This document shows, piece by piece, positions 25,842-59,181 of a stretch of DNA of 64,000 nucleotides. Numbering within the stretch: position 1 is the stretch's first letter; every line of letters begins with the position of its first letter. Source of the stretch: an uncultured Methanosarcinales archaeon (GTDB taxonomy: Archaea; Nanobdellota; Nanobdellia; Woesearchaeales; GW2011-AR4). The translations under genes were made by a program, and so were the position numbers. Location of the stretch: NCBI GenBank assembly GCA_964650285.1, contig CAZYSP010000003.1:6364-70363 (forward strand). The letters are read 5' to 3'. The notes beneath the pieces are model-generated. The model saw nothing but the letters and a program-made list of their open reading frames with translations, was not told the origin of the DNA and searched no databases.

Positions 25842-26852
25842 TTGTCTATGAAAGTCGCAGAATGGTTTGATAAAAACAGGTACAAAGCATCAAGTTTTTC
25901 AAACATAAAAAAACTGGTGGAATTGAAGAGAAAACAGAAAACTGCAATTAGTGTAGTTATTCCAACTCTTAACGAAGAATCAACCATTGGAAAGATAATA
26001 GAAGTTCTAAAAGAAAATTTAATGCAGAAATACAAGCTAGTGGATGAAATAGTTGTTATTGATTCTGGCAGCACTGACAAGACAAGAGACAACGCAAAAA
26101 AAGCAGGTGCAAACGTATATCTGGATTCTGAAATTCTAAAAAGAAAAGGAAATTACAAAGGCAAAGGTGAAAATTTATGGAAGTCCTTGTATGTAACAAA
26201 AGGTAATATAATATGCTGGATTGATGGTGATATAAAGAATATACATCCCAGATTTATTTACGGGCTTGTTGGGCCATTATTGACAAACAAGAATATTTAT
26301 TACACTAAAGCTTTTTATCAGAGAGTATCAAAAAAAGCCAATGGGACGACCCCTCTTGGAGGGGGAAGAACTACAGAACTGTGCTTTAGGCCTCTCATTA
26401 ATATGTTCTTTCCATTGCTAAGCGGCTTTATCCAGCCATTGAGTGGGGAATATGCTGGCAGGAGAAAACATCTGGAAAGACTTCCATTCTTCACTGGATA
26501 TGGTGTAGAAACAGGATTATTGATAGACATGCAAAAGAAATTTGGATTAAAAAGAGTTGCCCAGGTAGACCTTGTATCAAGGATACATAAGCACCAGAGT
26601 TTAAGAGGCCTAAGCAAACAGGCTTTTGCAGTTTTACAAGTAATATCAAAAAGAGCAAATACACTTGGGAAGTTCATACTTGTAAATGACATCAGGAGAA
26701 AAATAAAAATCATTGAAAGGGCCACTGAAGGCAAGAAAGTAGATTACAAACTTATTGATTCTCCGATTGAGCAAATACAAAGACCGCCAATAATTACATT
26801 AGAGGAATACAGAAAAAAATTCAAAAAAGAGCCTAAGTGGGTTTATGATTAA
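25842..26852 (+). CDS. GT2/GT81 glycosyltransferase, glucosyl-3-phosphoglycerate synthase-like
   Basis: ISVVIPTLNEESTIGKIIEVL ... VDEIVVIDSGSTDKT and a DGD (DxD) motif, resembling GpgS. Confidence 0.55.
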   Translation: MSMKVAEWFDKNRYKASSFSNIKKLVELKRKQKTAISVVIPTLNEESTIGKIIEVLKENLMQKYKLVDEIVVIDSGSTDKTRDNAKKAGANVYLDSEILKRKGNYKGKGENLWKSLYVTKGNIICWIDGDIKNIHPRFIYGLVGPLLTNKNIYYTKAFYQRVSKKANGTTPLGGGRTTELCFRPLINMFFPLLSGFIQPLSGEYAGRRKHLERLPFFTGYGVETGLLIDMQKKFGLKRVAQVDLVSRIHKHQSLRGLSKQAFAVLQVISKRANTLGKFILVNDIRRKIKIIERATEGKKVDYKLIDSPIEQIQRPPIITLEEYRKKFKKEPKWVYD

Positions 26853-26905
26853 TCTTTTATAAATTAAAGGAAAACTTAATAACATCTAAAACATTTATAT
26901 TCTTA

Positions 26906-28087
26906 ATGCTTATAAAAAACTATAAAAAATTGTCTAGGACTAACTTAAGAAGAAAAGCGCTTCAAATTATTAATTCTGGACTTTTAGCAATAAAAACAGA
27001 AAAAATAATAAAAAACAATATCAAATTAAAAGGTAATTCTCTGATAATAAAAAATAATAAATTCGATTTAAATAACTATAAAAGGATTTTTGTTATAGGT
27101 TTTGGAAAGGCCTCTTCTCTAATGGCAAAAGAACTAAAAAATATACTGAAAAACAGGATAAACAATGGACTAGTAATATCAACAAAGAAAATAAAGTTAA
27201 ATAAGATAAAAATCATAAAAGGAACTCATCCTCTTCCAACTGAAAAGAATATTTATGCCACAAAGAAAATGATAAACCTATTAAAAAGCCTGAATAAAGA
27301 TGATCTGGTGATTTCTCTTATTTCAGGAGGGGGTTCTGCTTTATTGTTTTATCCTAATATTAAATATTACAAATATATGGAAATATTCAACAAGGCATTC
27401 AAATCAGGAATTGGCATTTATGGATTAAATAAACTTAGGAAGAAATATTCTAATGTTAAAGGAGGCAAGCTGGCAAGACATACAAAAGCAAGAATAATTT
27501 CCTTGATATTCTCAGATGTTGTTGGTGATGATCTGGCTACTATTGCATCTGGACCAACATACGGGAAAGGGTTAAAGAATGTGGACAATATTCTGTTATT
27601 GAACAATGAAGTTGCTTTAGATGCCATGAAAAAGAAATCAGTTTTATTAGGACTAAAACCAATTATAGTTACAAATAAATTAAAAGGAGAAGCAAGATTG
27701 ATTAGGAAAAATCTGTTGAAATCAGTTAATAAGTATAAAAATAAGAATTGTTTTTTATTTGCAGGAGAAACAACAGTTACAGTTAAGGGTAATGGAAAAG
27801 GAGGAAGAAACCAGGAGTTGTGTTTAGGAGCTATAAAAGAGGTTGGGAAATTAAAAGATACTGTTATTGCTTTTGTAGGAACTGACGGCATAGACGGTCC
27901 AACAGATGCGGCAGGAGCGATAGTAGATAGTAACTCTTTAGAAAAAGCCCGAAAACTAGGATTAGATCCCACAGAATATTTAGATAAGAATGACTCTTAC
28001 AATTTCTTTAAAAGAATAAAAGATTTAGTTTTTACTGGAGCAACTGGTAGTAATGTGGCTGATATCGGGCTTATAGTTAAGAAATAA
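26906..28087 (+). CDS. glycerate kinase (MOFRL family)
   Basis: GTDGIDGPTDAAGAIVD signature and MOFRL N-terminus. Confidence 0.75.
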   Translation: MLIKNYKKLSRTNLRRKALQIINSGLLAIKTEKIIKNNIKLKGNSLIIKNNKFDLNNYKRIFVIGFGKASSLMAKELKNILKNRINNGLVISTKKIKLNKIKIIKGTHPLPTEKNIYATKKMINLLKSLNKDDLVISLISGGGSALLFYPNIKYYKYMEIFNKAFKSGIGIYGLNKLRKKYSNVKGGKLARHTKARIISLIFSDVVGDDLATIASGPTYGKGLKNVDNILLLNNEVALDAMKKKSVLLGLKPIIVTNKLKGEARLIRKNLLKSVNKYKNKNCFLFAGETTVTVKGNGKGGRNQELCLGAIKEVGKLKDTVIAFVGTDGIDGPTDAAGAIVDSNSLEKARKLGLDPTEYLDKNDSYNFFKRIKDLVFTGATGSNVADIGLIVKK

Positions 28088-28160
28088 CTTATTCTTTTAG
28101 TAAGTCTAAAAAAACAGCCATCTATATCTGTTGTGATTACAAGTTGCTCTAGCCTCATTT

Positions 28161-29210
28161 TTATTTATACACTTTGTCGTATATTGTGTTCGGGTCTATT
28201 AGCATTGGATTGTTCCTTAGAATGTGTTCAAGGTCTCCTGGCTTTTTAATAACACCTATACTCTGGCTGATGTTACCATTAACTTTATCAATCCTTGATT
28301 TGTATTTGCTGTCGTAAACAACAATTTTGCCATCAATAGGCCTTAGAACCAGTTCGGGCTCTTTTGAGATTTGGGGATCTCGCGCATTTGGCCAGTTAGA
28401 AGCATGACCATATCCAAAGAGTGGGCTTCTTCTTGCAAGCTGTTCTTCAATACCAAATATTTGCATCACTGCATTTTGGTTTTTTTCAACAGTCTTTGGC
28501 TCTAACCCTGCACCAACTATTACAAAATACAGAATCACTTCTGGTTTTTTTGGGTCTATTTTATATTCTTCCCTTAACTGCCAGTCTGCTTCTTTTAAGA
28601 CTTGGACTCTCTTATAAAGGCTTGATGCCTGCATTAATCTTACAAGAGGGTCTTCTTCATTTTCTACTCTTTGATAAAGGTCATTGCTATGCAATAATTC
28701 TTGTTCAGAAACTCCTGCTTCCTCTAGTATTGCAAGCTTTTTATCAGGGTCAATATCTGAAAGAGGGATGTAATGGTTAGCAGGTAAACTTAATCTTACA
28801 ATTTTTTCACCATCTTGATGTATTAATTGTCTCACAATATCTTTTGTTTTATCAACAACTTTACTAAAGGAACTATTTGTTTCATAATCTGGATTATCGC
28901 TATATGTAGGTGTAAAAGTACTACCATTTGTACATATTAAAACATCTTCAAATCCATTAAATTAAAAGGTAAATTCATTATTAAAGTCCGGATGAAGATA
29001 AGATTCCCCGCCACTAAACATGAGAGGCGCCCTTTTACTTCCTTTTAAGCCAGCAAATTCTTCTTTTAACAAGTGTAAGTCTAAAAATCCGGCAGTATTT
29101 CTCTCATTTGCAGCACTTTCTGAGCAGGGCCCGCACATCTTGTTACAGTAATCAGTAACAATAACTGTTATGGGGACCTGAATTTCAGTCTTATTTGTTG
29201 AATTTGTCAT
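28161..29210 (-). pseudogene. radical SAM protein interrupted by one in-frame TAA (28962-28964)
   Basis: Upstream part has CNKMCGPC (Cx3Cx2C) and FSGGESYLHPDF (GGE SAM motif). The frame continues in phase through the TAA into ...LICTNGS... and the 224-aa downstream ORF. Confidence 0.6.
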
Positions 29211-29289
29211 ATTATAGCTGTCTATGTAAAAATAGTATATACATCTTTCTGTTTTTACTACTATAAAGTGAATTATAATATTAATTTAA

Positions 29290-31002
29290 CTACTGAAGAC
29301 AATAAGCACCATATGGCTCAACTTGACCATTAAACTGTTTTTTAGAAATCAAATCAAATTTTTTTGTATATTTTGGCAAGGTTATTTTATCTTCACTAAC
29401 ATTAACAATGGCAATTATTTTTTTACCTTTGTATTTACGTTCGGTAATAAGCAATATTTTGTCTGATTTAACTGGTTTTTCCTTACAATAAGGGTCTAAT
29501 GCACTTATTCTTTTTCTGGCATTAAGAAGATGCAAATAGCTTGCCAGCACTTTATGCCTTATTGAATTTTTGTCTCTAATTTCTTGCTCTATTTTTTTAT
29601 AGTGTAATTTTCCCCTGTTAATTTCTCTATTGATGCCTGTTTTTTCAACGCCTCGCGAATAATTCCTAGAACCAAGCAAGCTGTGTATGTAAATTCCTGG
29701 AATTCCTTTGCTCAAAAGAATAATAACTTGGGAAGCCATAAATCTTTTAACTTTTTTTTCAATAGCTATTTTTTTGTTGGGATTATTAATCGCATCAAAA
29801 TAAGTTATATTTAGTTCATAAGGTGCTATCTTTCCATTCTTGGCTAATTTGTAAGATATAAGGCCATTATGTTTCTTTGTAGTAGCTAACAGACTGTTAA
29901 AATCTTTTGGAGAAATCATTCTCCTTGCACCCAAAATTCCTATACCATCATGCGAAGCTAAAAAATTGAAGAATAATGAATTCTTATTTAAAGCCCAAAA
30001 TATTTTATATGCTTTCTGTAAATAAGATGTGTCTTTCCTTGTAAATGCGTCAAAGACGAGGGGTGGCAACAGGAATTTATAGATCAACTGCGATTCGTCA
30101 TAGCCATTCCCAAAATAAGACATGTTTTCCTTAGGTGGTACATTAGTCTCGGTTATAATAATCGTATATGGTGCAACGTAATTTAGGACATCACGCATAA
30201 GCTTGACTATTTTATGAGTTTGCTTAAGATGAATGCATCTTGTCCCTAGTTCTTTCCATAAGTAAGCAATTGCGTCTAACCTGATTATTTCTACACCTTT
30301 TGAAACATAGAACAATAATATATCAATCATATCTATTAGTACATCAGGATTCTTATAATTAAGATCAATCTGATCGTTACTAAATGTTGTCCATATGTAT
30401 TTTGTTCCATTTTTAGTTTTGAATTTAGTCAATAAAGGATTTGTCCTAGGCCTGAACACAGAAGAAGTGTCTACTCTTTTATCAAAATTAATAAAATAAT
30501 TTTTGTATTTTTCATCTCCTTTCAGAAAACCCTTAAACCACTTAGATTCTCTAGAGATATGATTTACAACAAGGTCGACCATCAAACGGTAATCTTTGCA
30601 TATCCTTACAACATCCTCCCAATCTCCAAGCTTTGAGTTTACCTTCTTGTAATCAATGACTGAGAAGCCATCATCAGAGCTATAATAGAAAAATGGCAGT
30701 ATATGGACTCCTGATATGGATTTTTTAACATACTTCTTTAGGAATTTATGGAGAGTTTTTAATGGCTTTTCTCCTTCTTGCCTTATTGTGTCACCATATG
30801 TAATAAGAATAACATCTTTGTTTGTTAGTGAAATTTTACTATTGTATTTTTTCCTTTTAGCACGGACAATATTATTTTTTCTGTAATAATCCATTGTAGA
30901 TTTTAACTTTAGAATAATTTTATCAGTGTCTTTGTTTGGATAAAGGTATGCTATTTTCTTCCGTATCTTAGCCAGATTCTTTCTATCACTTGATTTTCCC
31001 AT
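29290..31002 (-). CDS. GH13 sucrose phosphorylase-family enzyme (possible glucosylglycerate phosphorylase)
   Basis: HILPFF..SDDGFSV, LMVDLVVNHIS and IRLDAIAYLWK blocks typical of sucrose phosphorylase. Confidence 0.75.
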   Translation of the reverse strand: MGKSSDRKNLAKIRKKIAYLYPNKDTDKIILKLKSTMDYYRKNNIVRAKRKKYNSKISLTNKDVILITYGDTIRQEGEKPLKTLHKFLKKYVKKSISGVHILPFFYYSSDDGFSVIDYKKVNSKLGDWEDVVRICKDYRLMVDLVVNHISRESKWFKGFLKGDEKYKNYFINFDKRVDTSSVFRPRTNPLLTKFKTKNGTKYIWTTFSNDQIDLNYKNPDVLIDMIDILLFYVSKGVEIIRLDAIAYLWKELGTRCIHLKQTHKIVKLMRDVLNYVAPYTIIITETNVPPKENMSYFGNGYDESQLIYKFLLPPLVFDAFTRKDTSYLQKAYKIFWALNKNSLFFNFLASHDGIGILGARRMISPKDFNSLLATTKKHNGLISYKLAKNGKIAPYELNITYFDAINNPNKKIAIEKKVKRFMASQVIILLSKGIPGIYIHSLLGSRNYSRGVEKTGINREINRGKLHYKKIEQEIRDKNSIRHKVLASYLHLLNARKRISALDPYCKEKPVKSDKILLITERKYKGKKIIAIVNVSEDKITLPKYTKKFDLISKKQFNGQVEPYGAYCLQ

Positions 31003-31093
31003 ATTATGAATCCAGATTGGGTATTTTATTAAGGTTTCTATAAAATCCCATAAAACTAAAGATTTATATAATACTTTATTTCTGGGAATACAA

Positions 31094-32461
31094 ATGAAAA
31101 TAAAAAAAATAGAGGTTTTCTCAACTCACGAGCCTTACAAAAGGCCTATTCCAATTGCAGTGGGAACGCATGACAATAGGAATAATATATTGGTTAAAAT
31201 AACTGCAGACAATAGTTTATCTGGATGGGGAGAAGGATCTCCTTTAATTCCTTCTTACTCTGGTGAAGTTAGGGACCAAATGGTTGATGATATTGTAAAA
31301 AGAATAGCTCCGGACATTCTTGAGCAAAAAATAACAACTGTAGATGACATCTTGGTATTAATTCAACATATTAGACACAATAAATACTATTTTCAATGCG
31401 CTATAGCTGCAGTTGATATCGCATTATTTGACCTTTTGGGCAAACAAAAGAAAAAACCAGTTTATGAACTTATTAGAGATTATTTAAGGCTGAAAAAATT
31501 CAATAAACTTCCGGAACTGCCTGCCAACTTTACAGTGAGTCGCAATGCAACTAGAACTGATGACAAGATTGATGAAATGATTAAAGAAGCAGATTATTAT
31601 GTTAGCCAAGGCTATTCTGTTATCAAGATTAAGATTGGTATCTTTAAAAACTCGGATGAGCGTGCAGTCAAGAAACTCTATCAGTATATGAAAAAGAATC
31701 ACCCTAACCATACTGTCAACCTGTTTGTAGATGGCAATCAAGCTTATTCAACAGTCCAAGAAGCACTTACTATTATCAATAAAATAAAGCCTTATATTGA
31801 CGGTCTGGAACAGCCATTCCACCGCAATATTCCTTATCTATCGGCGTCACTATACAAGAAGTTTAAATCAATGAAAGATGCTCCATTTTTGATTACTGAT
31901 GAAGGAAGCTCTTCTATTGAAGAAATGGAAAATGTCATGATTTCACATGCTGCTGCGGGTTCCTTGCTGAAAATGGTACGAAGTGGCGGTTTTAGCTTTG
32001 TGATTTGGCTTTCTAATCTGCTGCGCAAATATCCTAAATTCAAGCTAGAGCCCATGTCAATGACCGAGACAGGTATAGGTACTACTGCTAACTTGCACTC
32101 TGCTTTAGTTATTTATGAACATTGCAACTTAAACTCAGGCTTTGGCTTTGATGGTCCTATGCAGGTCATTGGAGACAGCTATAAAACAGGAAAAGACACA
32201 ATAATTTATAAGAATAAAAAAACTGGATTGATTATTAAAAATAAAAAAGGAGTTGCTATTTATGATGCAGAACAAATAATAGGGGATGGAGAAGGATTAG
32301 GTATTAATATTAACCAGAAATACATTGATAAGATTACTAAAGTGAGAATAGTTATTTGGCTAGAAAATAGTAATGTATTTAAAGAGGAAATAGTAGGAAA
32401 AGTAAATAAAAAAGAGATTATTGGAAAGCAGAAAACTATATTAAAGCACCCTAGATATTAA
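31094..32461 (+). CDS. enolase-superfamily (MR/MLE-type) enzyme with C-terminal extension
   Basis: KIKIG (KxK), FVDGNQAY (DxN) and EQPF metal-ligand pattern. Confidence 0.6.
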   Translation: MKIKKIEVFSTHEPYKRPIPIAVGTHDNRNNILVKITADNSLSGWGEGSPLIPSYSGEVRDQMVDDIVKRIAPDILEQKITTVDDILVLIQHIRHNKYYFQCAIAAVDIALFDLLGKQKKKPVYELIRDYLRLKKFNKLPELPANFTVSRNATRTDDKIDEMIKEADYYVSQGYSVIKIKIGIFKNSDERAVKKLYQYMKKNHPNHTVNLFVDGNQAYSTVQEALTIINKIKPYIDGLEQPFHRNIPYLSASLYKKFKSMKDAPFLITDEGSSSIEEMENVMISHAAAGSLLKMVRSGGFSFVIWLSNLLRKYPKFKLEPMSMTETGIGTTANLHSALVIYEHCNLNSGFGFDGPMQVIGDSYKTGKDTIIYKNKKTGLIIKNKKGVAIYDAEQIIGDGEGLGININQKYIDKITKVRIVIWLENSNVFKEEIVGKVNKKEIIGKQKTILKHPRY

Positions 32462-32491
32462 TTATTAAATAAAGTTTTGTAAGTATTTAAG

Positions 32492-34342
32492 ATGAAAACT
32501 ATAAAACCAAAAGCTGATTTTCTTATAGAAGTTTTACATGAAGTTGCTAATCCTATTGGTGGAGTTTATACTGTTGCTACAACCAGTTCAGGGGAAATGA
32601 GAAGATATTATGGAGAAAATTTTTATGTAGTTGGAGCATATTATCCAAAATTTGCTAAAGTTGAATTTGACGAAGAAATACCGCCACCGGAAATAAAAAA
32701 AATTTTTGAAGAATTAGAAAAAGAAAAAATAACTTGCTACTATGGTAGATGGCTAATCACCGGAAAGCCAAAAACAATTTTGGTTGATTATTCAAAATGG
32801 ATGAAAAAATTGAAAAAAATAAAGAAAGAAGTAACGAAGAAATATGGAATAGATTGTAGCAGATGCGGTCCTAATCTTAACAGACAAATAGTTTGGTCAT
32901 ATTGCCTAGTTAAGTTATTTGATAAATTATTAAGTCTTTCAGGATTTCAAAATAAAAAAGGAATTGCCCATTTTCATTTATCTGATCCAGGTTTATTACT
33001 TCTAGAACTTGCTGCTAAAAACACTAAGTTAGGGATAGTTTATACAGCACACTCTACAAGACTTGGTAGGTTCATAGCAATGAATAGTGAAGATCTAGTT
33101 ACTGAAATAAAAGAAGGCATTAAACATAAAAAAACTGTCAGAAAAGGTAGGGAGTATAAATATGGTGGTATAAGAGTAACTGTACACCAGTTTGAAAAGG
33201 CATGTGCAAAAGCAGCAGATGTGTTTACTAGTGTAAGTGAAACTACGGCTAGAGAAGCAGAGTACATATTAGGAAAAAAAACAGATGTTATAACACCTAA
33301 TGGGTTGGAATTCGAAAGATTTGTTTCTTTAGAAGAAAGAGCAATAAAACACAATAACTCCAAAGAAAGAATTTATAGATTTTTGAATGCATATTTTTTA
33401 CCATATTATCATGTAGACATACCACATTCCCTCCTATTCTTTACATCTGGAAGATACGAGCTTACCACAAAAGGTTATGATATTTTATTTAAAGTATTGG
33501 GTAAATTAAACAGCATATTAAAAAAAGAAAGGTATGAAAATAATATCTTTGTTTTTTTATTTATAATGACGGATTTAAAATCGAGTAATGAGGATATCTT
33601 AAATAATTTAAGCATATATGATACAATTGAGCATACTACGCAAGAAGAACTGCCTAATATAGAAAAAAGAATTATCGCAAATTTAATTCATGGTCATGAA
33701 ATAGCTAAAGAAAAAATATTCGATGAGCATTTTTTAATGGAGACCAAAAAGCTAATGCTGAAATTTATGAGAAAAGAAGATGAAACACCCCCTATCTCTG
33801 CATTTAAAGGTTTAAAAAAGGACGACATTATAATGAAGCTTTTGTTAAAAAGTGGGTTGGATAATAAAAAGGAGGACATAGTAAAGGTAATATTTTATCC
33901 GGCGCCAGTTTCAATTGCTGATGGTTTATTGTCCATGGAATACCATGAAGTTGTGAGTGGCATGCATCTCGGGATTTTTCCTTCTATATATGAACCATGG
34001 GGTTATACACCTCTGGAAACTGCAGCTCAGGCTGTTATGTCTATTACATCAGATGTTTCCGGATTCGGTAAATTTGTTATGAAAAACAGTAATCAAAGAA
34101 AAAAACCAGGAATTTTAGTGTTAAAGACAGAGAACAAAAAAAGAGAAGAAATAGTGGATGAGTTAACTGATATGATGTATTGGATTGCAAAGTTGCCTAG
34201 AAAACAAAGAATAGAAAAGAAATTACAAGCAAGAAAACTTTCAACCTTGGCAGATTGGGGAGAATTCTCAAAATATTATATCCAAGCACATAATTTGGCA
34301 ATAGAAAGAGCTGCTAAAAGACAAAAATCTAAAAAAAGATAA
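32492..34342 (+). CDS. GT3-family glycogen synthase-like glycosyltransferase
   Basis: N-terminal EVLHEVANPIGGVYTV...GENFYVVGAYYP parallels GT3 glycogen synthase (EVAWEVANKVGGIYTV...GDNYFLVGPY). Confidence 0.6.
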   Translation: MKTIKPKADFLIEVLHEVANPIGGVYTVATTSSGEMRRYYGENFYVVGAYYPKFAKVEFDEEIPPPEIKKIFEELEKEKITCYYGRWLITGKPKTILVDYSKWMKKLKKIKKEVTKKYGIDCSRCGPNLNRQIVWSYCLVKLFDKLLSLSGFQNKKGIAHFHLSDPGLLLLELAAKNTKLGIVYTAHSTRLGRFIAMNSEDLVTEIKEGIKHKKTVRKGREYKYGGIRVTVHQFEKACAKAADVFTSVSETTAREAEYILGKKTDVITPNGLEFERFVSLEERAIKHNNSKERIYRFLNAYFLPYYHVDIPHSLLFFTSGRYELTTKGYDILFKVLGKLNSILKKERYENNIFVFLFIMTDLKSSNEDILNNLSIYDTIEHTTQEELPNIEKRIIANLIHGHEIAKEKIFDEHFLMETKKLMLKFMRKEDETPPISAFKGLKKDDIIMKLLLKSGLDNKKEDIVKVIFYPAPVSIADGLLSMEYHEVVSGMHLGIFPSIYEPWGYTPLETAAQAVMSITSDVSGFGKFVMKNSNQRKKPGILVLKTENKKREEIVDELTDMMYWIAKLPRKQRIEKKLQARKLSTLADWGEFSKYYIQAHNLAIERAAKRQKSKKR

Positions 34343-34411
34343 TTTTTAATATTCATATTTAATGTTCCTGTTGGTCTCTTAAAATATTTAAATAAAAATG
34401 AATAATGCTTT

Positions 34412-35197
34412 TTGATGAAATCGATAATTTTTACAGATTTGGATGGAACTTTACTGGATCAATATAATTATTCTTATAAAAAAGCTATAAAAGCATTAAA
34501 CCTAATTAGGAAAAAAGATATTCCTTTGGTATTTTGTACTAGCAAAACAAGAGCAGAGATAGAATTTTATAGAAAAAAACTTAGTAATAAGCATCCTTTT
34601 ATTTCTGAAAATGGCGGTGCTATTTTCATTCCGAATAATTATTTTAATTTTAAAGTCGATTATGATAAAAAAGATAAAGATTATTTTATTATAGAATTGG
34701 GAACAGACTACGATAAACTAATATCTGTAATTAAAAAAATTAAAAATAACATTAATATTAGAAATTTCGGCAGCATGAGCGCTAAAGAAGTCTCAAAAAT
34801 TACAAATCTGCCTATAAGAAATGCTGAGCTGGCAAAAAAAAGATATTATGATGAACCTTTTATTTTAGTTGATAAAGAAAAAGATTTGGTGAAGATAGTA
34901 AGAAAAAATAACTTGAGCTATACAAAAGGAACAAGATTTTATCATTTAATGGGTGAGAGTGACAAAGGAAAAGCAGTAAGGATTTTAACAAATTTTTTTA
35001 AGAAGAAATATGGTAAAATAGTAACCTATGGTTTTGGAGATTCAAAAAATGATTTTGAGATGCTTGATAGCGTTGATAAAGGTTACTTGGTGATGAAAAA
35101 AGACAAAAAGTACGCTTCAAAAAAATATAAAAAAGCATATGGAATTGGTCCGATAGGATGGAGTAAGGTTGTTAAAGAAGTAATCCTAAATAATTGA
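34412..35197 (+). CDS. HAD-IIB phosphatase, mannosyl/glucosyl-3-phosphoglycerate phosphatase-like
   Basis: IIFTDLDGTLLD motif I, ~260 aa. Confidence 0.7.
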   Translation: MMKSIIFTDLDGTLLDQYNYSYKKAIKALNLIRKKDIPLVFCTSKTRAEIEFYRKKLSNKHPFISENGGAIFIPNNYFNFKVDYDKKDKDYFIIELGTDYDKLISVIKKIKNNINIRNFGSMSAKEVSKITNLPIRNAELAKKRYYDEPFILVDKEKDLVKIVRKNNLSYTKGTRFYHLMGESDKGKAVRILTNFFKKKYGKIVTYGFGDSKNDFEMLDSVDKGYLVMKKDKKYASKKYKKAYGIGPIGWSKVVKEVILNN

Positions 35198-35252
35198 CCC
35201 AATTAAATTTATCATTGAAATCAGAGGAATAGTATTTTTTTCTGGAATCGTT

Positions 35253-36194
35253 TCATAGACCCCTATAAAACCTAGCAGCATCTTCAGGCGTTACTGAATT
35301 TATTATTGCTCCTGTCGAAAGTTCAAATCCCCCCCATTTTGCAAGCCTGGGAGTTATTTCTATATGGAAATGCAAGTCGTGACCTTGTGGGGCGTAATGC
35401 AGGAAAAAATTATGTGACACGTTCAATTTCTTTAATTTTACAAGTATTTTTTTAAGCGCTGATGCCATATCGTACAATTCATGGTCATACATAGCTGTTA
35501 TACTCTTAACATGCCTCTTAGGGAATATCCATGCTTCAAAATTAAATCTGGACGCAAAGGGTGCAAAGGCAACTGTACTTTTGTTTGCTACTATCTTCCT
35601 TTTACTTTTTGATTCTAATCTTATTATATTACAATGTGGGCACCTTCTAAATTTCTTTGCTGCTTTAATTTCATTCATTACATCTTTTGGCAGAATAGGC
35701 AGAGCAGCTACTTGTGTATGGGAATGTATTAAAGATGTACCAGCGGAAGAGCCTTGATTCCTGAAAACAGTAACGTATTTTATATCCTTTAATTTTGATA
35801 GTGCTTTTATTCTTGATACGTATACATCAAAAATCTCTTTTATATGTTCTATGCTCAAATCTGAGAGTTGTTTTTTATGGTCTCTTGTTTCCGCTATTAT
35901 TTCATGCATGCCATAGGTCTTTCCTTCTTTGAGAAACTTATTTTTTGTTTTTATTCCAACATTTTCTTTTAATTCCACAACAGGAAATTTGTTTGGGAAC
36001 CATCTTACCCTCCAAGTGTTTTTTTCTTTAACGCGGCCTATTTCTGGCGGTGTCAAATGCTCATTTTCAGGGCAGAAAAAGCATGTTTTTGTGTTAACAG
36101 TATGATCTTCCTTAAACTCCCTAGGCCTTTTTTTTCTTTCAGTAGCGTAATAAACCCACCTGTCAAGAATATAGTCTTTCCTTAGTATTCCCAT
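35253..36194 (-). CDS. GalT-like HIT-superfamily nucleotidyltransferase/phosphorylase
   Basis: CFFCPENE zinc motif and HSHTQ (HxHxQ) active site. Confidence 0.7.
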   Translation of the reverse strand: MGILRKDYILDRWVYYATERKKRPREFKEDHTVNTKTCFFCPENEHLTPPEIGRVKEKNTWRVRWFPNKFPVVELKENVGIKTKNKFLKEGKTYGMHEIIAETRDHKKQLSDLSIEHIKEIFDVYVSRIKALSKLKDIKYVTVFRNQGSSAGTSLIHSHTQVAALPILPKDVMNEIKAAKKFRRCPHCNIIRLESKSKRKIVANKSTVAFAPFASRFNFEAWIFPKRHVKSITAMYDHELYDMASALKKILVKLKKLNVSHNFFLHYAPQGHDLHFHIEITPRLAKWGGFELSTGAIINSVTPEDAARFYRGL

Positions 36195-36331
36195 ATTAAA
36201 ATATCCTCAAAAACAAGCTATTTAAACTTTTTGAATTTATCCTTTGCTTAGTTCCCTCCTTTTTTGCCATTATAAAATTTTATAGAATTATCCATTTATA
36301 TACTTTTTTGTACTGCATTTAATTATTACAA

Positions 36332-46449: not shown

Positions 46450-46510
46450 AATCTTAAATTTCCGAATAAAAACAACAATATTTATAAAAGCTAAATCTTA
46501 GGAAAATAAT

Positions 46511-47239
46511 ATGCCAGAACAACAAGTGCCGCAACAGCAGATGAGTGGGGAGCAAATTAAGGCTCTGCAGGAGAAAATTAAGCAGATGTCTCCTGAGGAG
46601 CTTAAAGAATTTCAGAAAAAGCAATGCATTTTCTGCCAGATTGTTTCTGGAAAAGTTCAGTCAAAAAAGGTTTATGAGGATGATGATGTGATTGCAGTTC
46701 TTGATGTAAATCCAGCAAATCCAGGACATATTCTTATCATGCCTAAAGAGCATTATTCTATAATGCCACAAATACCTTATGAGGATATAGAGCATATTTT
46801 CATGGTTACTAAAGCCTTATCTAATGCTTCATTAAGAGCCTTGGGGGTACAAGGTTCTAATATTATTGTGGCTAATGGTGTTGCTGCTGGACAAAGAGCT
46901 CAACACTTCATGGTGCATTTAATCCCCAGGAAAGAAAATGACAATATACAATTTCAGGTTCCGCAAAAAACCATTCCAGAGCAGGAACTGCAAAAGGTAA
47001 GAAAAGCATTATCTGAAAGCTTAGGAGCAAAAGCAGAAGAATCTGAAGAAAAAATGACTGCTGTTCCATTAATACGAAAACAGAAGGTTGTAGAAGCAGA
47101 ATTCAAAGAAAAAAAAGAGCCAAGAAAAAGAGCCAAGAAAAAAGAAGTAAAAAAAGAAACTAAAACAAAAGGCAAGCAAAAGAAAGCTAATGAAGGTATA
47201 AATCTTGACGATATAGCAAAAGTTTTAGGACCGGGATAA
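46511..47239 (+). CDS. HIT-like protein with degenerate histidine triad (H-x-M-x-H) and K/E-rich tail
   Basis: CIFCQIV N-terminus typical of Hint. Triad region reads AQHFMVHLIP where HxHxH is expected. Confidence 0.6.
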   Translation: MPEQQVPQQQMSGEQIKALQEKIKQMSPEELKEFQKKQCIFCQIVSGKVQSKKVYEDDDVIAVLDVNPANPGHILIMPKEHYSIMPQIPYEDIEHIFMVTKALSNASLRALGVQGSNIIVANGVAAGQRAQHFMVHLIPRKENDNIQFQVPQKTIPEQELQKVRKALSESLGAKAEESEEKMTAVPLIRKQKVVEAEFKEKKEPRKRAKKKEVKKETKTKGKQKKANEGINLDDIAKVLGPG

Positions 47240-47242
47240 AAA

Positions 47243-47791
47243 ATGAAAACAAGGGAAAGCTGTTTGATATGCCAGATTGTAGGGAATAAAGTTCCATCCT
47301 ATAAAGTATATGAAGATGACTTAATCTTAGCAGTTGTAGATGTAAATGGAGCTAACCCCGGGCATTGTTTTGTGATTCCAAAAAACCATTATCCTATTAT
47401 TGAGCAAGTGCCTGACCAAGAGCTTGCAAATCTTTTTTCAGTTGCGAATAAAATTTCTTCTGCTATATTTGAAAATCTAAAAGTGCAGGGAACAAATATA
47501 TTTGTTGCTAACGGAATTCCAGCTGGCCAGACTGTAGCGCATTTTATGATTAATGTTATACCAAGAAAAGAGAATGATGGTATTAACCTGCAATGGAAAG
47601 CAAAGCAATTAAGCCAGGAAGAGATGTCCACTGTTGAGCTTAAGCTTAAAGAGCAAATACAGAATGTGGGTGTAGGAAAAATTGAAAAAACAGAGAAGCC
47701 AGAAACAGCTGCTGAGAAAGCAAAAATACCGCCAATATCAGATGATGACGAAGATGATTATTTTATGAGGCAAACAAAAAGAATACCTTAA
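47243..47791 (+). CDS. HIT-like paralogue with degenerate triad (H-x-M-x-N)
   Basis: CLICQIV N-terminus. Triad region VAHFMINVIP. Starts 4 bp after the previous gene. Confidence 0.6.
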   Translation: MKTRESCLICQIVGNKVPSYKVYEDDLILAVVDVNGANPGHCFVIPKNHYPIIEQVPDQELANLFSVANKISSAIFENLKVQGTNIFVANGIPAGQTVAHFMINVIPRKENDGINLQWKAKQLSQEEMSTVELKLKEQIQNVGVGKIEKTEKPETAAEKAKIPPISDDDEDDYFMRQTKRIP

Positions 47792-56969: not shown

Positions 56970-58739
56970 TTATTCCAACACAGCCTTAATCCTTCTTATT
57001 CCAGCAGCAGAGCTTTCTTCTTTTATTATTTTAAATTTGCCAAGTTCATTGGTATTTTTAACATGAGGTCCGCCGCATATTTCTGTTGAAAAATTTTCTA
57101 TTGAATAAACAGAGACTCTTTCAGCATATTTATGCTCAAAGACTCCCTGTGCATTCTTCTTTTTTGCCTCTTCTAAAGTCATTTCTTCCTTTTTAACTTG
57201 CAACCCGGCTTTTATTTTTTCATTAACAATGTCTTTTATCTTTTTTATTTCTCCTTCGCTTAGTTTTCTGTCAAAATTAAAGTCAAACCTTAATCTTTCC
57301 GGAGTTATGTTAGAGCCTTTCTGGATTATTTTATCATCTTTTAAAACTCTTCTTAATGCTTCATTTAACAAATGGGTAACTGTATGTAATTTTTTTGTTT
57401 GTTCGGAGCTATCAGCTAAGCCTCCTTTAAAGCGCTTTTCTGCTCCTGCCCTTGAAAGCTTTTGATGTTTTTTGAATTCTTTCTCAAAACCTTTTTTATC
57501 TACTTTGATTCCTTTTTCTTCTGCTAATTCTTCTACCATTTCTAATGGAAAGCCGTATGATTGGAATAAAAGGAAAGCTTCTTTTCCTGATATTTTTTTG
57601 TCATTTGCCATCCTTTCAAACTTACGAAGGCCTTTCTCAAGTGTTGCTCTGAATTTTTCATCTTCTTTTTTTAGTTCATTTAAGATGAAATTTTTGTTTT
57701 TTTCTAACTCATTATAATCTCCTTTATGAAGGTTGATAACTATTTTTGCCAATTCTGTTACAAATTCTTTTTCTATACCTAATAACTTTCCATGCCTTAT
57801 GGAGCGTCTTATGAATCTCCTTAGAATGTAACCTTGGTCTAGATTTGATGGTACTATCCCTAGATCGTCTCCTAAAATGAATATTGCTGCCCTTATATGG
57901 TCTGTTATTATTCTTATTGAGAGTTCTTGTTTCTCGTTAGGATTATCTATTTTTGCTAGTTCTTTTATTTTTTCTACTATTGGAGTAAAGGTTTCTATTT
58001 CATATACTGTTTTTTTGCCTTGAAGTGTTGCTATAGTTCTTTCAACACCCATTCCAGTATCAACGGTTTTTTGTTTAAAGGGAATGTATTTTCCCTCTTT
58101 TGTTTTATTGTATTGTATAAAGACATCATTCCAAATCTCAAAATATTTTCCGCAACTACATCCTGGCTTACAATCTTTACTGCATTTTTCTTTTCCAGTA
58201 TCATAAAACATTTCAGTATCTGGACCGCATGGACCTGTTGAACCAGCAGGACCCCACCAGTTATCTTTTTTTGGCAGATAAAAAATTCTTTTTTTTGGAA
58301 TTCCTAAGCTTTTCCATATTTTTGCTGATTCCTCATCTCTTGGAGCATCTTTGTCTCCTTTAAAAACAGTAATATACAGCTTGTTTTTATCCAAACCAAG
58401 CCATTTTTTTGATGTTAAGAACTCAAAGCTCCATTCAATTGCTTCTTTTTTCCAGTAATCTCCCAAAGACCAGTTACCAAGCATCTCAAAAAATGTTAAG
58501 TGGGAAGGATCTCCTATCTCATCTATATCCCCTGTTCTGATGCATTTTTGAACATCAACTAAACGCTTGCCAGCAGGATGACTTTCTCCCATTATGTATG
58601 GAACAAGAGGGTGCATACCCGCAGTTGTAAATAAAACAGTTGGATCGTGTTCAGGAATTAAAGAAGCAGAGTTAATCAATTTATGCCTCTTTTCAATAAA
58701 AAATTCAAAATATTTTTTTTTAAAATCTTTGGCTTTCAT
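56970..58739 (-). CDS. alaS: alanyl-tRNA synthetase lacking the C-terminal C-Ala domain
   Basis: TTAGM...QKCIR...HLTFFEMLGNWSLGDY catalytic core, HLLNEALRRVL and CGGPHV editing motifs. Ends about 35 aa after CGGPHV. Start is trimmed to MKAKDF so it does not overlap tRNA-Glu. Confidence 0.85.
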   Translation of the reverse strand: MKAKDFKKKYFEFFIEKRHKLINSASLIPEHDPTVLFTTAGMHPLVPYIMGESHPAGKRLVDVQKCIRTGDIDEIGDPSHLTFFEMLGNWSLGDYWKKEAIEWSFEFLTSKKWLGLDKNKLYITVFKGDKDAPRDEESAKIWKSLGIPKKRIFYLPKKDNWWGPAGSTGPCGPDTEMFYDTGKEKCSKDCKPGCSCGKYFEIWNDVFIQYNKTKEGKYIPFKQKTVDTGMGVERTIATLQGKKTVYEIETFTPIVEKIKELAKIDNPNEKQELSIRIITDHIRAAIFILGDDLGIVPSNLDQGYILRRFIRRSIRHGKLLGIEKEFVTELAKIVINLHKGDYNELEKNKNFILNELKKEDEKFRATLEKGLRKFERMANDKKISGKEAFLLFQSYGFPLEMVEELAEEKGIKVDKKGFEKEFKKHQKLSRAGAEKRFKGGLADSSEQTKKLHTVTHLLNEALRRVLKDDKIIQKGSNITPERLRFDFNFDRKLSEGEIKKIKDIVNEKIKAGLQVKKEEMTLEEAKKKNAQGVFEHKYAERVSVYSIENFSTEICGGPHVKNTNELGKFKIIKEESSAAGIRRIKAVLE

Positions 58740-58793
58740 GATTTGAATAAGGATGGGTTTATTTAAAAAGTTTGCTTTAAAAATAAATAGAAA

Positions 58794-58868
58794 TGCTCCC
58801 AACGGGATTCGAACCCGTGTCTCGGCCTCGAGAAGGCCGAATGATTGGCCGGGCTACACCATGGGAGC
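58794..58868 (-). tRNA. tRNA-Glu(CUC)
   Basis: GCTCCCA-TG-GTGT-AGCCCGGCCAA-TCAT-T-CGGCC-TTCTCGA-GGCCG-AGAC-ACGGG-TTCGAAT-CCCGT-TGGGAGC-A. 75 nt, no intron. Confidence 0.8.
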
Positions 58869-58883
58869 ATAGAAAATAAAAAA

Positions 58884-59097: not shown

Positions 59098-59181
59098 TGC
59101 GGCAGCCGAGATTCGAACTCGGGTCCCAGCCTTTTTACAATGTTTGGCAAGGCCGGATCTTAACCACTGGACTACTGCCGC
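59098..59181 (-). tRNA. tRNA-Gly(GCC) with 12-nt canonical intron
   Basis: GCGGCAG-TA-GTCC-AGTGGTTA-AGAT-C-CGGCC-TTGCCA[12 nt]A-GGCTG-GGAC-CCGAG-TTCGAAT-CTCGG-CTGCCGC-A. Confidence 0.7.

What the first reader, a model, noticed from the sequence alone, without database searches (positions are those of the whole stretch)
28161..29210. Radical SAM gene broken by a single in-frame TAA
The 82-aa ORF 28962-29210 carries the Cx3Cx2C cluster (CNKMCGPC) and the GGE SAM-binding motif, then stops at TAA (28962-28964). Translating on in the same phase gives ...FNGFEDVLICTNGSTF... with no further stop, and runs straight into the 224-aa ORF 28161-28835, whose GTG start is in the same phase. So this is one ~350-aa radical SAM protein with one nonsense codon. 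It is a recent pseudogene, a sequencing or assembly error, or less likely a recoded stop. It lies inside the sugar-metabolism island.
Basis: seen in the sequence. Interest (0 to 1): 0.55.

Follow-up and report, generated by a model that had tools for sequence, protein, structure and literature searches.

The report
Radical SAM pseudogene, real nonsense codon
A radical SAM enzyme gene in an uncultured marine archaeon has been killed by one genuine premature stop codon that recurs in many independent metagenome assemblies, so it is an ordinary decaying gene and neither a sequencing error nor a recoded stop.

Summary
On the minus strand, 29210..28161 is one 349-position reading frame with a CX3CX2C cluster and a GGE motif, broken only by TAA at 28962-28964. 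Intact homologues are single proteins of 348-359 aa. They align across the stop at 65% identity and carry His or Tyr at that position.

It is not an assembly error. The identical TAA occurs in contigs from at least 17 different samples (Tara, JGI, NCBI, ENA, Logan). These contigs are 99.3-100% identical to the window, most over 2-17.6 kb.

It is not a code change. TAA ends 33 of 49 long non-overlapping reading frames, and no other gene in the window is interrupted.

It is decay. The downstream operon partner, an MpgP-like phosphatase, is cut to 17 codons. A sister lineage has deleted 933 bp of this same gene. Two further lineages carry independent single frameshift lesions.

The parent family is very small and uncharacterised, and all five members found on contigs longer than 1.5 kb lie among glucosylglycerate/mannosylglycerate genes. 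The three lesions fall within about 15 codons of each other, which I cannot explain.

Verdict: a young, fixed pseudogene. Interest is low.

The parts
28161..29210 (-). Whole radical SAM pseudogene: 348 sense codons, one internal TAA and the terminal TAA
   Evidence: Searches give the frame. One search shows 65% identity over the full length to the intact P0002. Searches show that the full-length family models as one radical SAM partial TIM barrel.
28962..28964 (-). Premature in-frame TAA (codon 83), in the context UUU UAA UUU
   Evidence: P0002 has His and the L030 lineage has Tyr at this column. The codon is identical in contigs from at least 17 samples.
29124..29147 (-). CX3CX2C [4Fe-4S] cluster motif (C22, C26, C29; CNKMCGPC)
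   Evidence: Translation. The motif is conserved in all family members.
29004..29012 (-). GGE SAM-binding motif (G67-E69). The next residue is Ser here and Pro in every other family member.
   Evidence: P70S is a change unique to the window.
28836..28961 (-). 42 codons after the stop with no in-frame start codon. They include the conserved beta-3 strand motif ICTNG (28923-28937).
   Evidence: In the model, strand E91-95 lies between the stop and the GTG.
28161..28835 (-). 224-codon ORF that gene callers start at a fortuitous in-phase GTG. It is the C-terminal two thirds of the pseudogene.
   Evidence: It is called as a 'hypothetical protein' in public data. No Pfam family matches it.
28108..28158 (-). 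Remnant (first 17 codons, MRLEQLVITTDIDGCFF) of the MpgP-like HAD phosphatase gene that follows the radical SAM gene in the intact locus. About 0.8 kb of it has been deleted.
   Evidence: One search gives 124 bits to TIGR02461 for the partial L002 gene.
28314..29246 (-). Stretch missing (933 bp replaced by 9 bp) in the sister lineage L024-L028. It covers the start codon, the N-terminal part, the TAA and most of the C-terminal part.
29290..31002 (-). Upstream neighbour: GH13 sucrose-phosphorylase-like gene. The intact loci L002 and L029 have a GH63 hydrolase next to the radical SAM gene instead.
26906..28087 (+). Convergent neighbour: glycerate 2-kinase. It is also adjacent in L002 and L030.

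Best explanation
This is a unitary pseudogene. A gene for a radical SAM enzyme of about 348 aa, from a very small uncharacterised family, acquired a single nonsense mutation at codon 83. A one-base change such as TAY (Tyr) to TAA is a plausible origin.

TAA is this organism's normal and commonest terminator. Translation should therefore end after 82 residues, which cover only beta1-alpha1-beta2 of the barrel with the Fe-S cysteines and the GGE motif. No start codon follows for 42 codons, so beta-3 (ICTNG) cannot be made.

The mutation is fixed in a near-clonal, widely distributed marine archaeal lineage. It belongs to a broader loss of an ancestral module, GH63 hydrolase - radical SAM - MpgP-like phosphatase:
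- the phosphatase gene next door is already deleted;
- a GH13 phosphorylase-like gene occupies the hydrolase position;
- a sister lineage has deleted most of the radical SAM gene.

Shown: the stop is real, reproducible and lineage-wide; homologues are contiguous; the code is standard; the gene is dispensable in the sister lineage. Inferred: no functional product is made; the ancestral codon; the ancestral role in glucosylglycerate/mannosylglycerate metabolism.
For: 1. Homologues are single proteins. P0002 (348 aa) aligns at 65% identity across the stop. P0003 (359 aa) and P0007 (383 aa) are also contiguous.
3. The same TAA occurs in contigs from at least 17 samples from Tara, JGI, NCBI, ENA and Logan. 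These contigs are 99.3-100% identical to the window, most over 2-17.6 kb. No intact variant at 90% identity or more was found among the 5.8 billion clusters, which stand for about 15 billion proteins.
4. TAA terminates 33 of 49 long non-overlapping ORFs, and 12 of those are TAA-T, the same context as here. The other same-frame ORF pairs in the window are separate complete genes.
5. The operon partner is reduced to 17 codons.
6. In the sister lineage 933 bp of the gene are deleted, while the island around it is about 99.75% identical.
7. Two other lineages carry independent single lesions. L030 has a 14-bp tandem duplication and L032 a 1-bp deletion, and one repair restores each ORF.
8. No RNA structure lies downstream of the stop (z = 0.07). 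The two tRNA genes in the window read as Glu(CTC) and, by my reading of the alignment, Gly(GCC), so neither is a suppressor.
Against: Apart from the TAA the frame is intact, and the window lineage shows no clear rate acceleration. It has 37 lineage-specific changes against 32 and 33 in the two related lineages, and 46.3% against 46.5% identity to the outgroup. Continued function by read-through cannot be excluded from sequence divergence alone.

The population is too clonal to estimate dN/dS.

The lesions of three lineages cluster within about 15 codons. Simple random decay predicts this only about 0.6% of the time (a post hoc estimate).

No transcript, protein or read-level data could be examined.
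Confidence: 0.9

Rival explanations
1. Site-specific read-through or recoding of this one UAA yields a functional full-length enzyme, perhaps at a low, regulated level.
For: There is a single lesion and the downstream frame is intact and well conserved. No excess divergence is seen. The stop falls at a variable alignment column (His, Tyr or Phe in relatives), so any inserted residue might be tolerated. The allele is fixed in an abundant lineage.
Against: The UAA-U context is the same as in 12 genuine terminators of the window. No downstream structure is present and no suppressor tRNA is seen. From general knowledge, no UAA recoding system is known in archaea; the known ones use UGA for selenocysteine and UAG for pyrrolysine. 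The sister lineage deleted the gene and the operon partner is already lost. Other lineages are broken by frameshifts, which one read-through mechanism cannot rescue.
Confidence: 0.04
2. The gene works as two pieces: an 82-aa cluster-binding peptide and a 224-aa C-terminal protein re-initiated at GTG 28835. A split near this point would then be a tolerated or favoured arrangement in the family.
For: Three lineages are broken within about 15 codons of each other (window codon 83; L030 and L032 at the CTNG motif). Both the window and L032 have a GTG at the same downstream alignment column.
Against: The pieces would lack the 42 codons that contain the conserved beta-3 strand ICTNG and helix alpha-3. 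The intact members are contiguous. The shared GTG sits at a Val/Ile column and is simply the first start codon a gene caller meets. Each lineage has a different type of lesion. The sister lineage lost both pieces.
Confidence: 0.03
3. Sequencing or assembly error: the real genome has a sense codon at this position.
For: None found. A single-base error can in principle create a TAA.
Against: The identical codon occurs in contigs from at least 17 samples built by different assemblers and projects. Some of these contigs carry other SNPs and so are not copies of one record: L001 has I to K, and L033 and L034 have E79G. No intact close variant was found in the protein collection.
Confidence: 0.005
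4. TAA is reassigned to an amino acid across the whole genome of this organism.
For: None beyond the finding itself.
Against: TAA ends 33 of 49 long non-overlapping ORFs at positions that match Pfam domain ends. This is the only conserved gene interrupted in 64 kb.
Confidence: 0.005

Closest known systems
Radical SAM superfamily (Pfam PF04055)
   Different: The window sequence scores 23.5 bits, below the Pfam gathering score of 29.5. Only the first 100 residues or so are recognisable by sequence. A long helical insertion (roughly residues 148-216 of P0002) has no sequence match to any solved structure. No curated NCBIfam subfamily is reached.
EpeE/YydG radical SAM peptide epimerase (PDB 8ai1), the closest solved fold
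   Different: Sequence identity is only 12%. There is no auxiliary-cluster cysteine motif; P0002 has only four Cys (22, 26, 29, 94). The gene neighbours are sugar and compatible-solute enzymes, not a peptide precursor.
Sugar-modifying radical SAM enzymes (BlsE, DesII, BtrN, AprD4)
   Different: There is no significant sequence relationship; BtrN gives E = 0.4. No twitch domain is present and the substrate is unknown.
Ordinary prokaryotic unitary pseudogene caused by a nonsense mutation
   Same: There is a single premature stop relative to intact orthologues, adjacent gene loss, deletion in a close relative, and recurrent loss in related lineages.
   Different: It is fixed in a very widespread, near-clonal planktonic lineage. 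Its lesion lies close to the independent lesions of two other lineages.
Programmed stop-codon recoding (selenocysteine at UGA, pyrrolysine at UAG, viral read-through)
   Same: It shares only the superficial picture: an in-frame stop inside a conserved enzyme.
   Different: The codon here is UAA and no downstream structure is present. No other gene in the window shows an in-frame stop, and the gene is dispensable in the sister lineage.

Membership tests
Radical SAM superfamily | CX3CX2C motif that binds the [4Fe-4S] cluster | tested here: met
   C22-x3-C26-x2-C29. The motif is conserved in all relatives.
Radical SAM superfamily | GGE(P) SAM-binding motif at the end of beta-2 | tested here: met
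   SGGE is at residues 66-69. The following Pro, conserved in all relatives, is Ser in the window.
Radical SAM superfamily | Score at or above the Pfam PF04055 gathering threshold | tested here: not met
   The score is 23.5 bits against a cut-off of 29.5. Precomputed Pfam hits on the homologues are marked weak. The family profile does reach PDB radical SAM cores at E = 5e-8.
Radical SAM superfamily | Partial (beta/alpha)6 TIM-barrel fold | tested here: met
SPASM/twitch radical SAM enzymes | Cys-rich C-terminal domain that binds auxiliary Fe-S clusters | tested here: not met
   P0002 has no Cys after residue 94, and the window has none after C93. NCBIfam SPASM models score 15-18 bits against cut-offs of 400 or more.
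Glycyl-radical activating enzymes (the JGI label for P0002 is 'organic radical activating enzyme') | A partner glycyl-radical enzyme gene nearby, and a family-level sequence match | tested here: not met
Viperin-like radical SAM enzymes | NCBIfam NF038283 score at or above its cut-off | tested here: not met
   The score is 18.3 bits against a cut-off of 180.
Pseudogene (nonsense type) | Premature stop relative to intact full-length homologues | tested here: met
Pseudogene (nonsense type) | The lesion is real, that is, reproducible in independent data | tested here: met
   Contigs from at least 17 samples carry it. Raw reads were not inspected.
Pseudogene (nonsense type) | The codon acts as a terminator in this genome | tested here: met
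   33 of 49 long ORFs end in TAA, and no other gene is interrupted.
Pseudogene (nonsense type) | The gene is dispensable: lost or independently broken in close relatives | tested here: met
   The sister lineage has a 933-bp deletion. L030 and L032 carry frameshifts.
Pseudogene (nonsense type) | No full-length product is made | not testable with these tools
   This needs metaproteome, ribosome-profiling or expression data.

The most novel reading that the evidence does not exclude
The broken gene belongs to an undescribed radical SAM family. It has fewer than ten lineages among the 1.84 billion cluster representatives searched. The five members found on contigs longer than 1.5 kb all sit beside glucosylglycerate/mannosylglycerate genes (GH63 hydrolase, MpgP-like phosphatase, glycerate kinase, GpgS). 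The clustering of three independent single lesions within codons 83-98 could be non-random. It might reflect a reversible on/off switch or a tolerated split, so that the 'pseudogene' would be a conditionally silenced gene and not a dead one.
Probability: 0.06. Interest if true: 0.55.

Novelty: new member of a known kind. Interest (0 to 1): 0.2.

Why it matters
The main value is for annotation. In at least 17 public datasets, gene callers report an 82-aa and a 224-aa 'hypothetical protein' that are in fact two fragments of one dead gene.

There are two smaller points of interest.

First, the parent family is a very rare, uncharacterised radical SAM enzyme, and its members found on contigs longer than 1.5 kb lie in compatible-solute (glucosylglycerate/mannosylglycerate) clusters of uncultured archaea. 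No radical chemistry is known for that pathway, and a full-text search for 'glucosylglycerate' together with 'radical SAM' returned no papers.

Second, the locus captures stages of gene loss. One lineage has the intact module, the window has a nonsense mutation plus a deleted partner gene, and a sister lineage has a large deletion. All of this sits in an island that is nearly identical between two lineages whose flanking genes differ by 7-11%.

Tried and rejected
- Both genome-contig scans found no close relative. One used the family alignment and one the glycerate kinase (best 38% identity). The organism's taxon was therefore not determined beyond 'archaeon'. That call rests on Nre, deoxyhypusine synthase, long S7 and S12 proteins and an intron-containing tRNA.
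- Both metagenome-contig scans returned nothing, including a degenerate DNA pattern that allowed any codon at the stop. That collection evidently lacks these contigs, so the result says nothing about sense-codon variants.
- The single-sequence AlphaFold model was useless (pLDDT 40). It was replaced by the model built from an 8-sequence alignment.
- The afdb50 fold library was unavailable.
- dN/dS within the lineage cannot be estimated. The contigs are 99.3-100% identical, and the few SNPs seen are singletons.
- The six mismatches in L016 and the eight in L008 are bunched within about 35-40 bp; those in L016 lie at the end of the contig. I treat both sets as assembly artefacts.
- Two frameshifted population variants of the C-terminal part (P0027, P0028) looked like extra decay. 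Functional neighbour genes show similar truncated variants, so I do not count these as evidence.
- A relative-rate test and a count of changes at invariant sites showed no significant acceleration. This fits a young pseudogene but does not prove one.
- Literature searches found nothing that links this family or pathway to radical SAM chemistry.

Full report
OBSERVATION. On the minus strand an ATG at 29210 opens an 82-codon ORF. It contains C22-x3-C26-x2-C29 (CNKMCGPC) and G67-G68-E69, and it ends at TAA (28962-28964). The same frame then runs open for 266 more codons to the TAA at 28161-28163. The 224-aa ORF that the ORF listing reports (28161..28835) starts at a GTG in the same phase, and the 42 codons before it hold no in-frame ATG, GTG or TTG. 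The Pfam Radical_SAM match on the fused sequence covers residues 16-100, so it crosses the stop. It scores only 23.5 bits, below the gathering score of 29.5, and no NCBIfam subfamily is approached.

HOMOLOGUES ARE SINGLE PROTEINS. A word-indexed search of 5.8 billion protein clusters found only two relatives. P0001 is the same 224-aa fragment from another assembly. P0002 is an intact 348-aa protein that aligns over the full length at 65% identity (E = 2e-166), with His opposite the stop. An exhaustive phmmer search of 1.84 billion cluster representatives with P0002 found 22 proteins at E up to 0.001, of which only seven reach E of 1e-10 or better and belong to the family. They include the contiguous P0003 (359 aa, 49%) and P0007 (383 aa). 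The rest are generic radical SAM matches.

NOT AN ERROR. Exact look-ups of the two fragments returned 19 and 23 contigs. The places shown, together with L001, L033 and L034, come from at least 17 samples and several assemblers:
- ENA ERZ27286502, ERZ27245234, ERZ27245245, ERZ4231626, ERZ23486362 and ERZ23486405
- Logan SRR10556723, SRR25584940, SRR35531825, SRR11826814 and SRR11744890
- NCBI GCA_001757045.1 and GCA_002998485.1
- JGI 3300048645, 3300036767, 3300005520 and 3300034822
- Tara identifiers appear.

All of them carry the same TAA. They are 99.3-100% identical to the window, most over 2-17.6 kb. A few have private SNPs, which shows they are independent: I to K in L001 and E79G in L033 and L034. 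One search found no intact variant at 90% identity or more.

NOT A CODE CHANGE. Of 49 long non-overlapping reading frames, 33 end in TAA, and 12 of those are TAA-T, the same context as here. Only five other places have two sizeable same-frame ORFs separated by one stop. Three are clearly pairs of separate complete genes: deoxyhypusine synthase | nucleotidyltransferase, HIT | HIT, and IscS | IscU. In the fourth, a complete metallophosphoesterase is followed by an ORF with no family match. In the fifth, neither segment shows evidence of a broken gene: the 481-codon ORF has no family match and the 72-codon segment upstream of it was not scanned. The 106 nt around and after the stop fold no better than shuffled sequence (z = 0.07). 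The two tRNA genes in the window are Glu(CTC) and an intron-containing tRNA whose anticodon I read as GCC (Gly).

EVIDENCE OF DECAY AROUND THE GENE.
- In the intact locus L002 the order is GH63 glucosylglycerate-hydrolase-like, then the radical SAM gene, then an MpgP-like HAD phosphatase, then a convergent glycerate kinase. In the window only the first 17 codons of that phosphatase survive (28158..28108, MRLEQLVITTDIDGCFF against MRLEQLVIVTDMDGCFL). They are followed almost at once by the 3' end of the glycerate kinase gene, so about 0.8 kb has been deleted. A full MpgP paralogue remains at 34406-35197 (246 bits, cut-off 244).
- A second common haplotype was found through a one-residue variant of the GH13 neighbour (24 contigs, including Tara CEPX01019390). 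It lacks window 28314-29246, with 933 bp replaced by 9 bp. That removes the start codon, the N-terminal part, the TAA and most of the C-terminal part. It keeps the last 50 or so codons and the same phosphatase remnant. The phosphatase deletion is therefore older and shared, and the radical SAM gene is dispensable.
- Two other lineages of the family are broken independently. L030, a 63.6-kb JGI contig with a related gene cluster, has a 14-bp tandem duplication (ATAATCTGTACTAA) inside the ICTNG codons. L032 has a 1-bp deletion in an A-run just after VCTNG. In each case one repair restores a full-length frame.

AGE. The window copy shows no clear acceleration. It has 37 lineage-specific changes, against 32 and 33 in the two lineages of similar divergence, and identity to the outgroup P0003 is 46.3% against 46.5%. 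It does have nine unique changes at otherwise invariant columns, against six and two in the other lineages. One of them is the Pro after GGE, which is Ser here. The pseudogene is therefore young relative to the roughly 35% protein divergence between lineages. That is also why the frame still looks intact.

WHAT THE GENE WAS. Only superfamily membership can be claimed. There is no SPASM or twitch cysteine motif, no glycyl-radical partner gene and no viperin-level score. Every member found on a contig longer than 1.5 kb lies among compatible-solute and glycogen genes:
- GH63 MGH-like hydrolase is adjacent in L002, L029 and L031.
- Glycerate kinase is adjacent in the window, L002 and L030.
- GpgS-like GT2 and GalT-like genes lie nearby.

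I infer an ancestral role linked to glucosylglycerate/mannosylglycerate turnover, but this is not shown. In the window lineage a GH13 sucrose-phosphorylase-like gene sits where L002 has the GH63 hydrolase. That would fit replacement of a hydrolytic module by a phosphorolytic one, leaving the radical SAM-phosphatase pair redundant. This is speculation.

UNEXPLAINED. The three independent lesions fall at about codons 83, 95 and 98 of a 348-codon gene. A rough post hoc estimate for three random hits within 45 of 1047 bp is about 0.006. The lesion types differ (substitution, microhomology duplication, homopolymer contraction), which argues against one programmed mechanism, and L032 is a short contig on which an error is possible. 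I treat the clustering as coincidence plus local mutational hot spots, but I record it as open.

VERDICT. This is a real, fixed, young nonsense pseudogene of a rare radical SAM family (confidence about 0.9). It sits in a gene island that is being remodelled. Read-through (0.04) and a functional split (0.03) remain as minor rivals. An assembly error and a code change are excluded. It is ordinary in kind, and interest is low.

Noticed in passing
window 25842-36206 against L024 (Tara CEPX01019390): The sugar island (GalT, MpgP, glycogen synthase, enolase-superfamily gene, GH13, glycerate kinase, GpgS) differs by only 22 substitutions in about 8.9 kb (0.25%) between two lineages. The flanking nucleotidyltransferase (57/669), PanB (56/828) and CoaBC (137/1290) genes differ by 7-11%. 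This suggests recent horizontal exchange or recombination of the island.
   Followed up: partly
window 28108-28158 (-): A 17-codon remnant of an MpgP-like HAD phosphatase gene that is full length in L002 (2451-3283). The 53-aa ORF 27997-28158 is this remnant read on into the antisense of the glycerate kinase 3' end.
   Followed up: yes
L030 6001-7067 and L032 3-991: Independent single-lesion disruptions of the same radical SAM family in two other lineages: a 14-bp tandem duplication in L030 and a 1-bp deletion in L032. Both lie within about 15 codons of the window's stop.
   Followed up: partly
window 59098-59181 (-): Rfam finds an 84-nt tRNA (47.7 bits) with a 14-nt insertion in the anticodon arm. 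ARAGORN does not call it. It is probably an intron-containing archaeal tRNA-Gly(GCC).
   Followed up: partly
window 56970-58853 (-): The alanyl-tRNA synthetase reading frame is only about 600 aa and ends right after the tRNA_SAD motif, so the usual C-terminal domain seems to be missing. Its stop-to-stop frame overlaps tRNA-Glu at 58793-58869.
   Followed up: no
window 46502-47239 and 47240-47791 (+): Two HIT-family genes lie in tandem in the same frame, separated only by a TAA. They look like a tandem duplication and not one broken gene.
   Followed up: partly
whole window, compared with L003-L017: The lineage is remarkably clonal. Contigs from unrelated ocean metagenome projects are 100% identical to the window over up to 17.6 kb. 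Even so, no species-representative genome in the GTDB-based collection contains this locus.
   Followed up: partly
window 32483-34342 (+): A Pfam Glycogen_syn (PF05693) protein of about 616 aa, the family of eukaryote-type glycogen synthases, lies inside the archaeal island (385 bits). It has no NCBIfam match.
   Followed up: no
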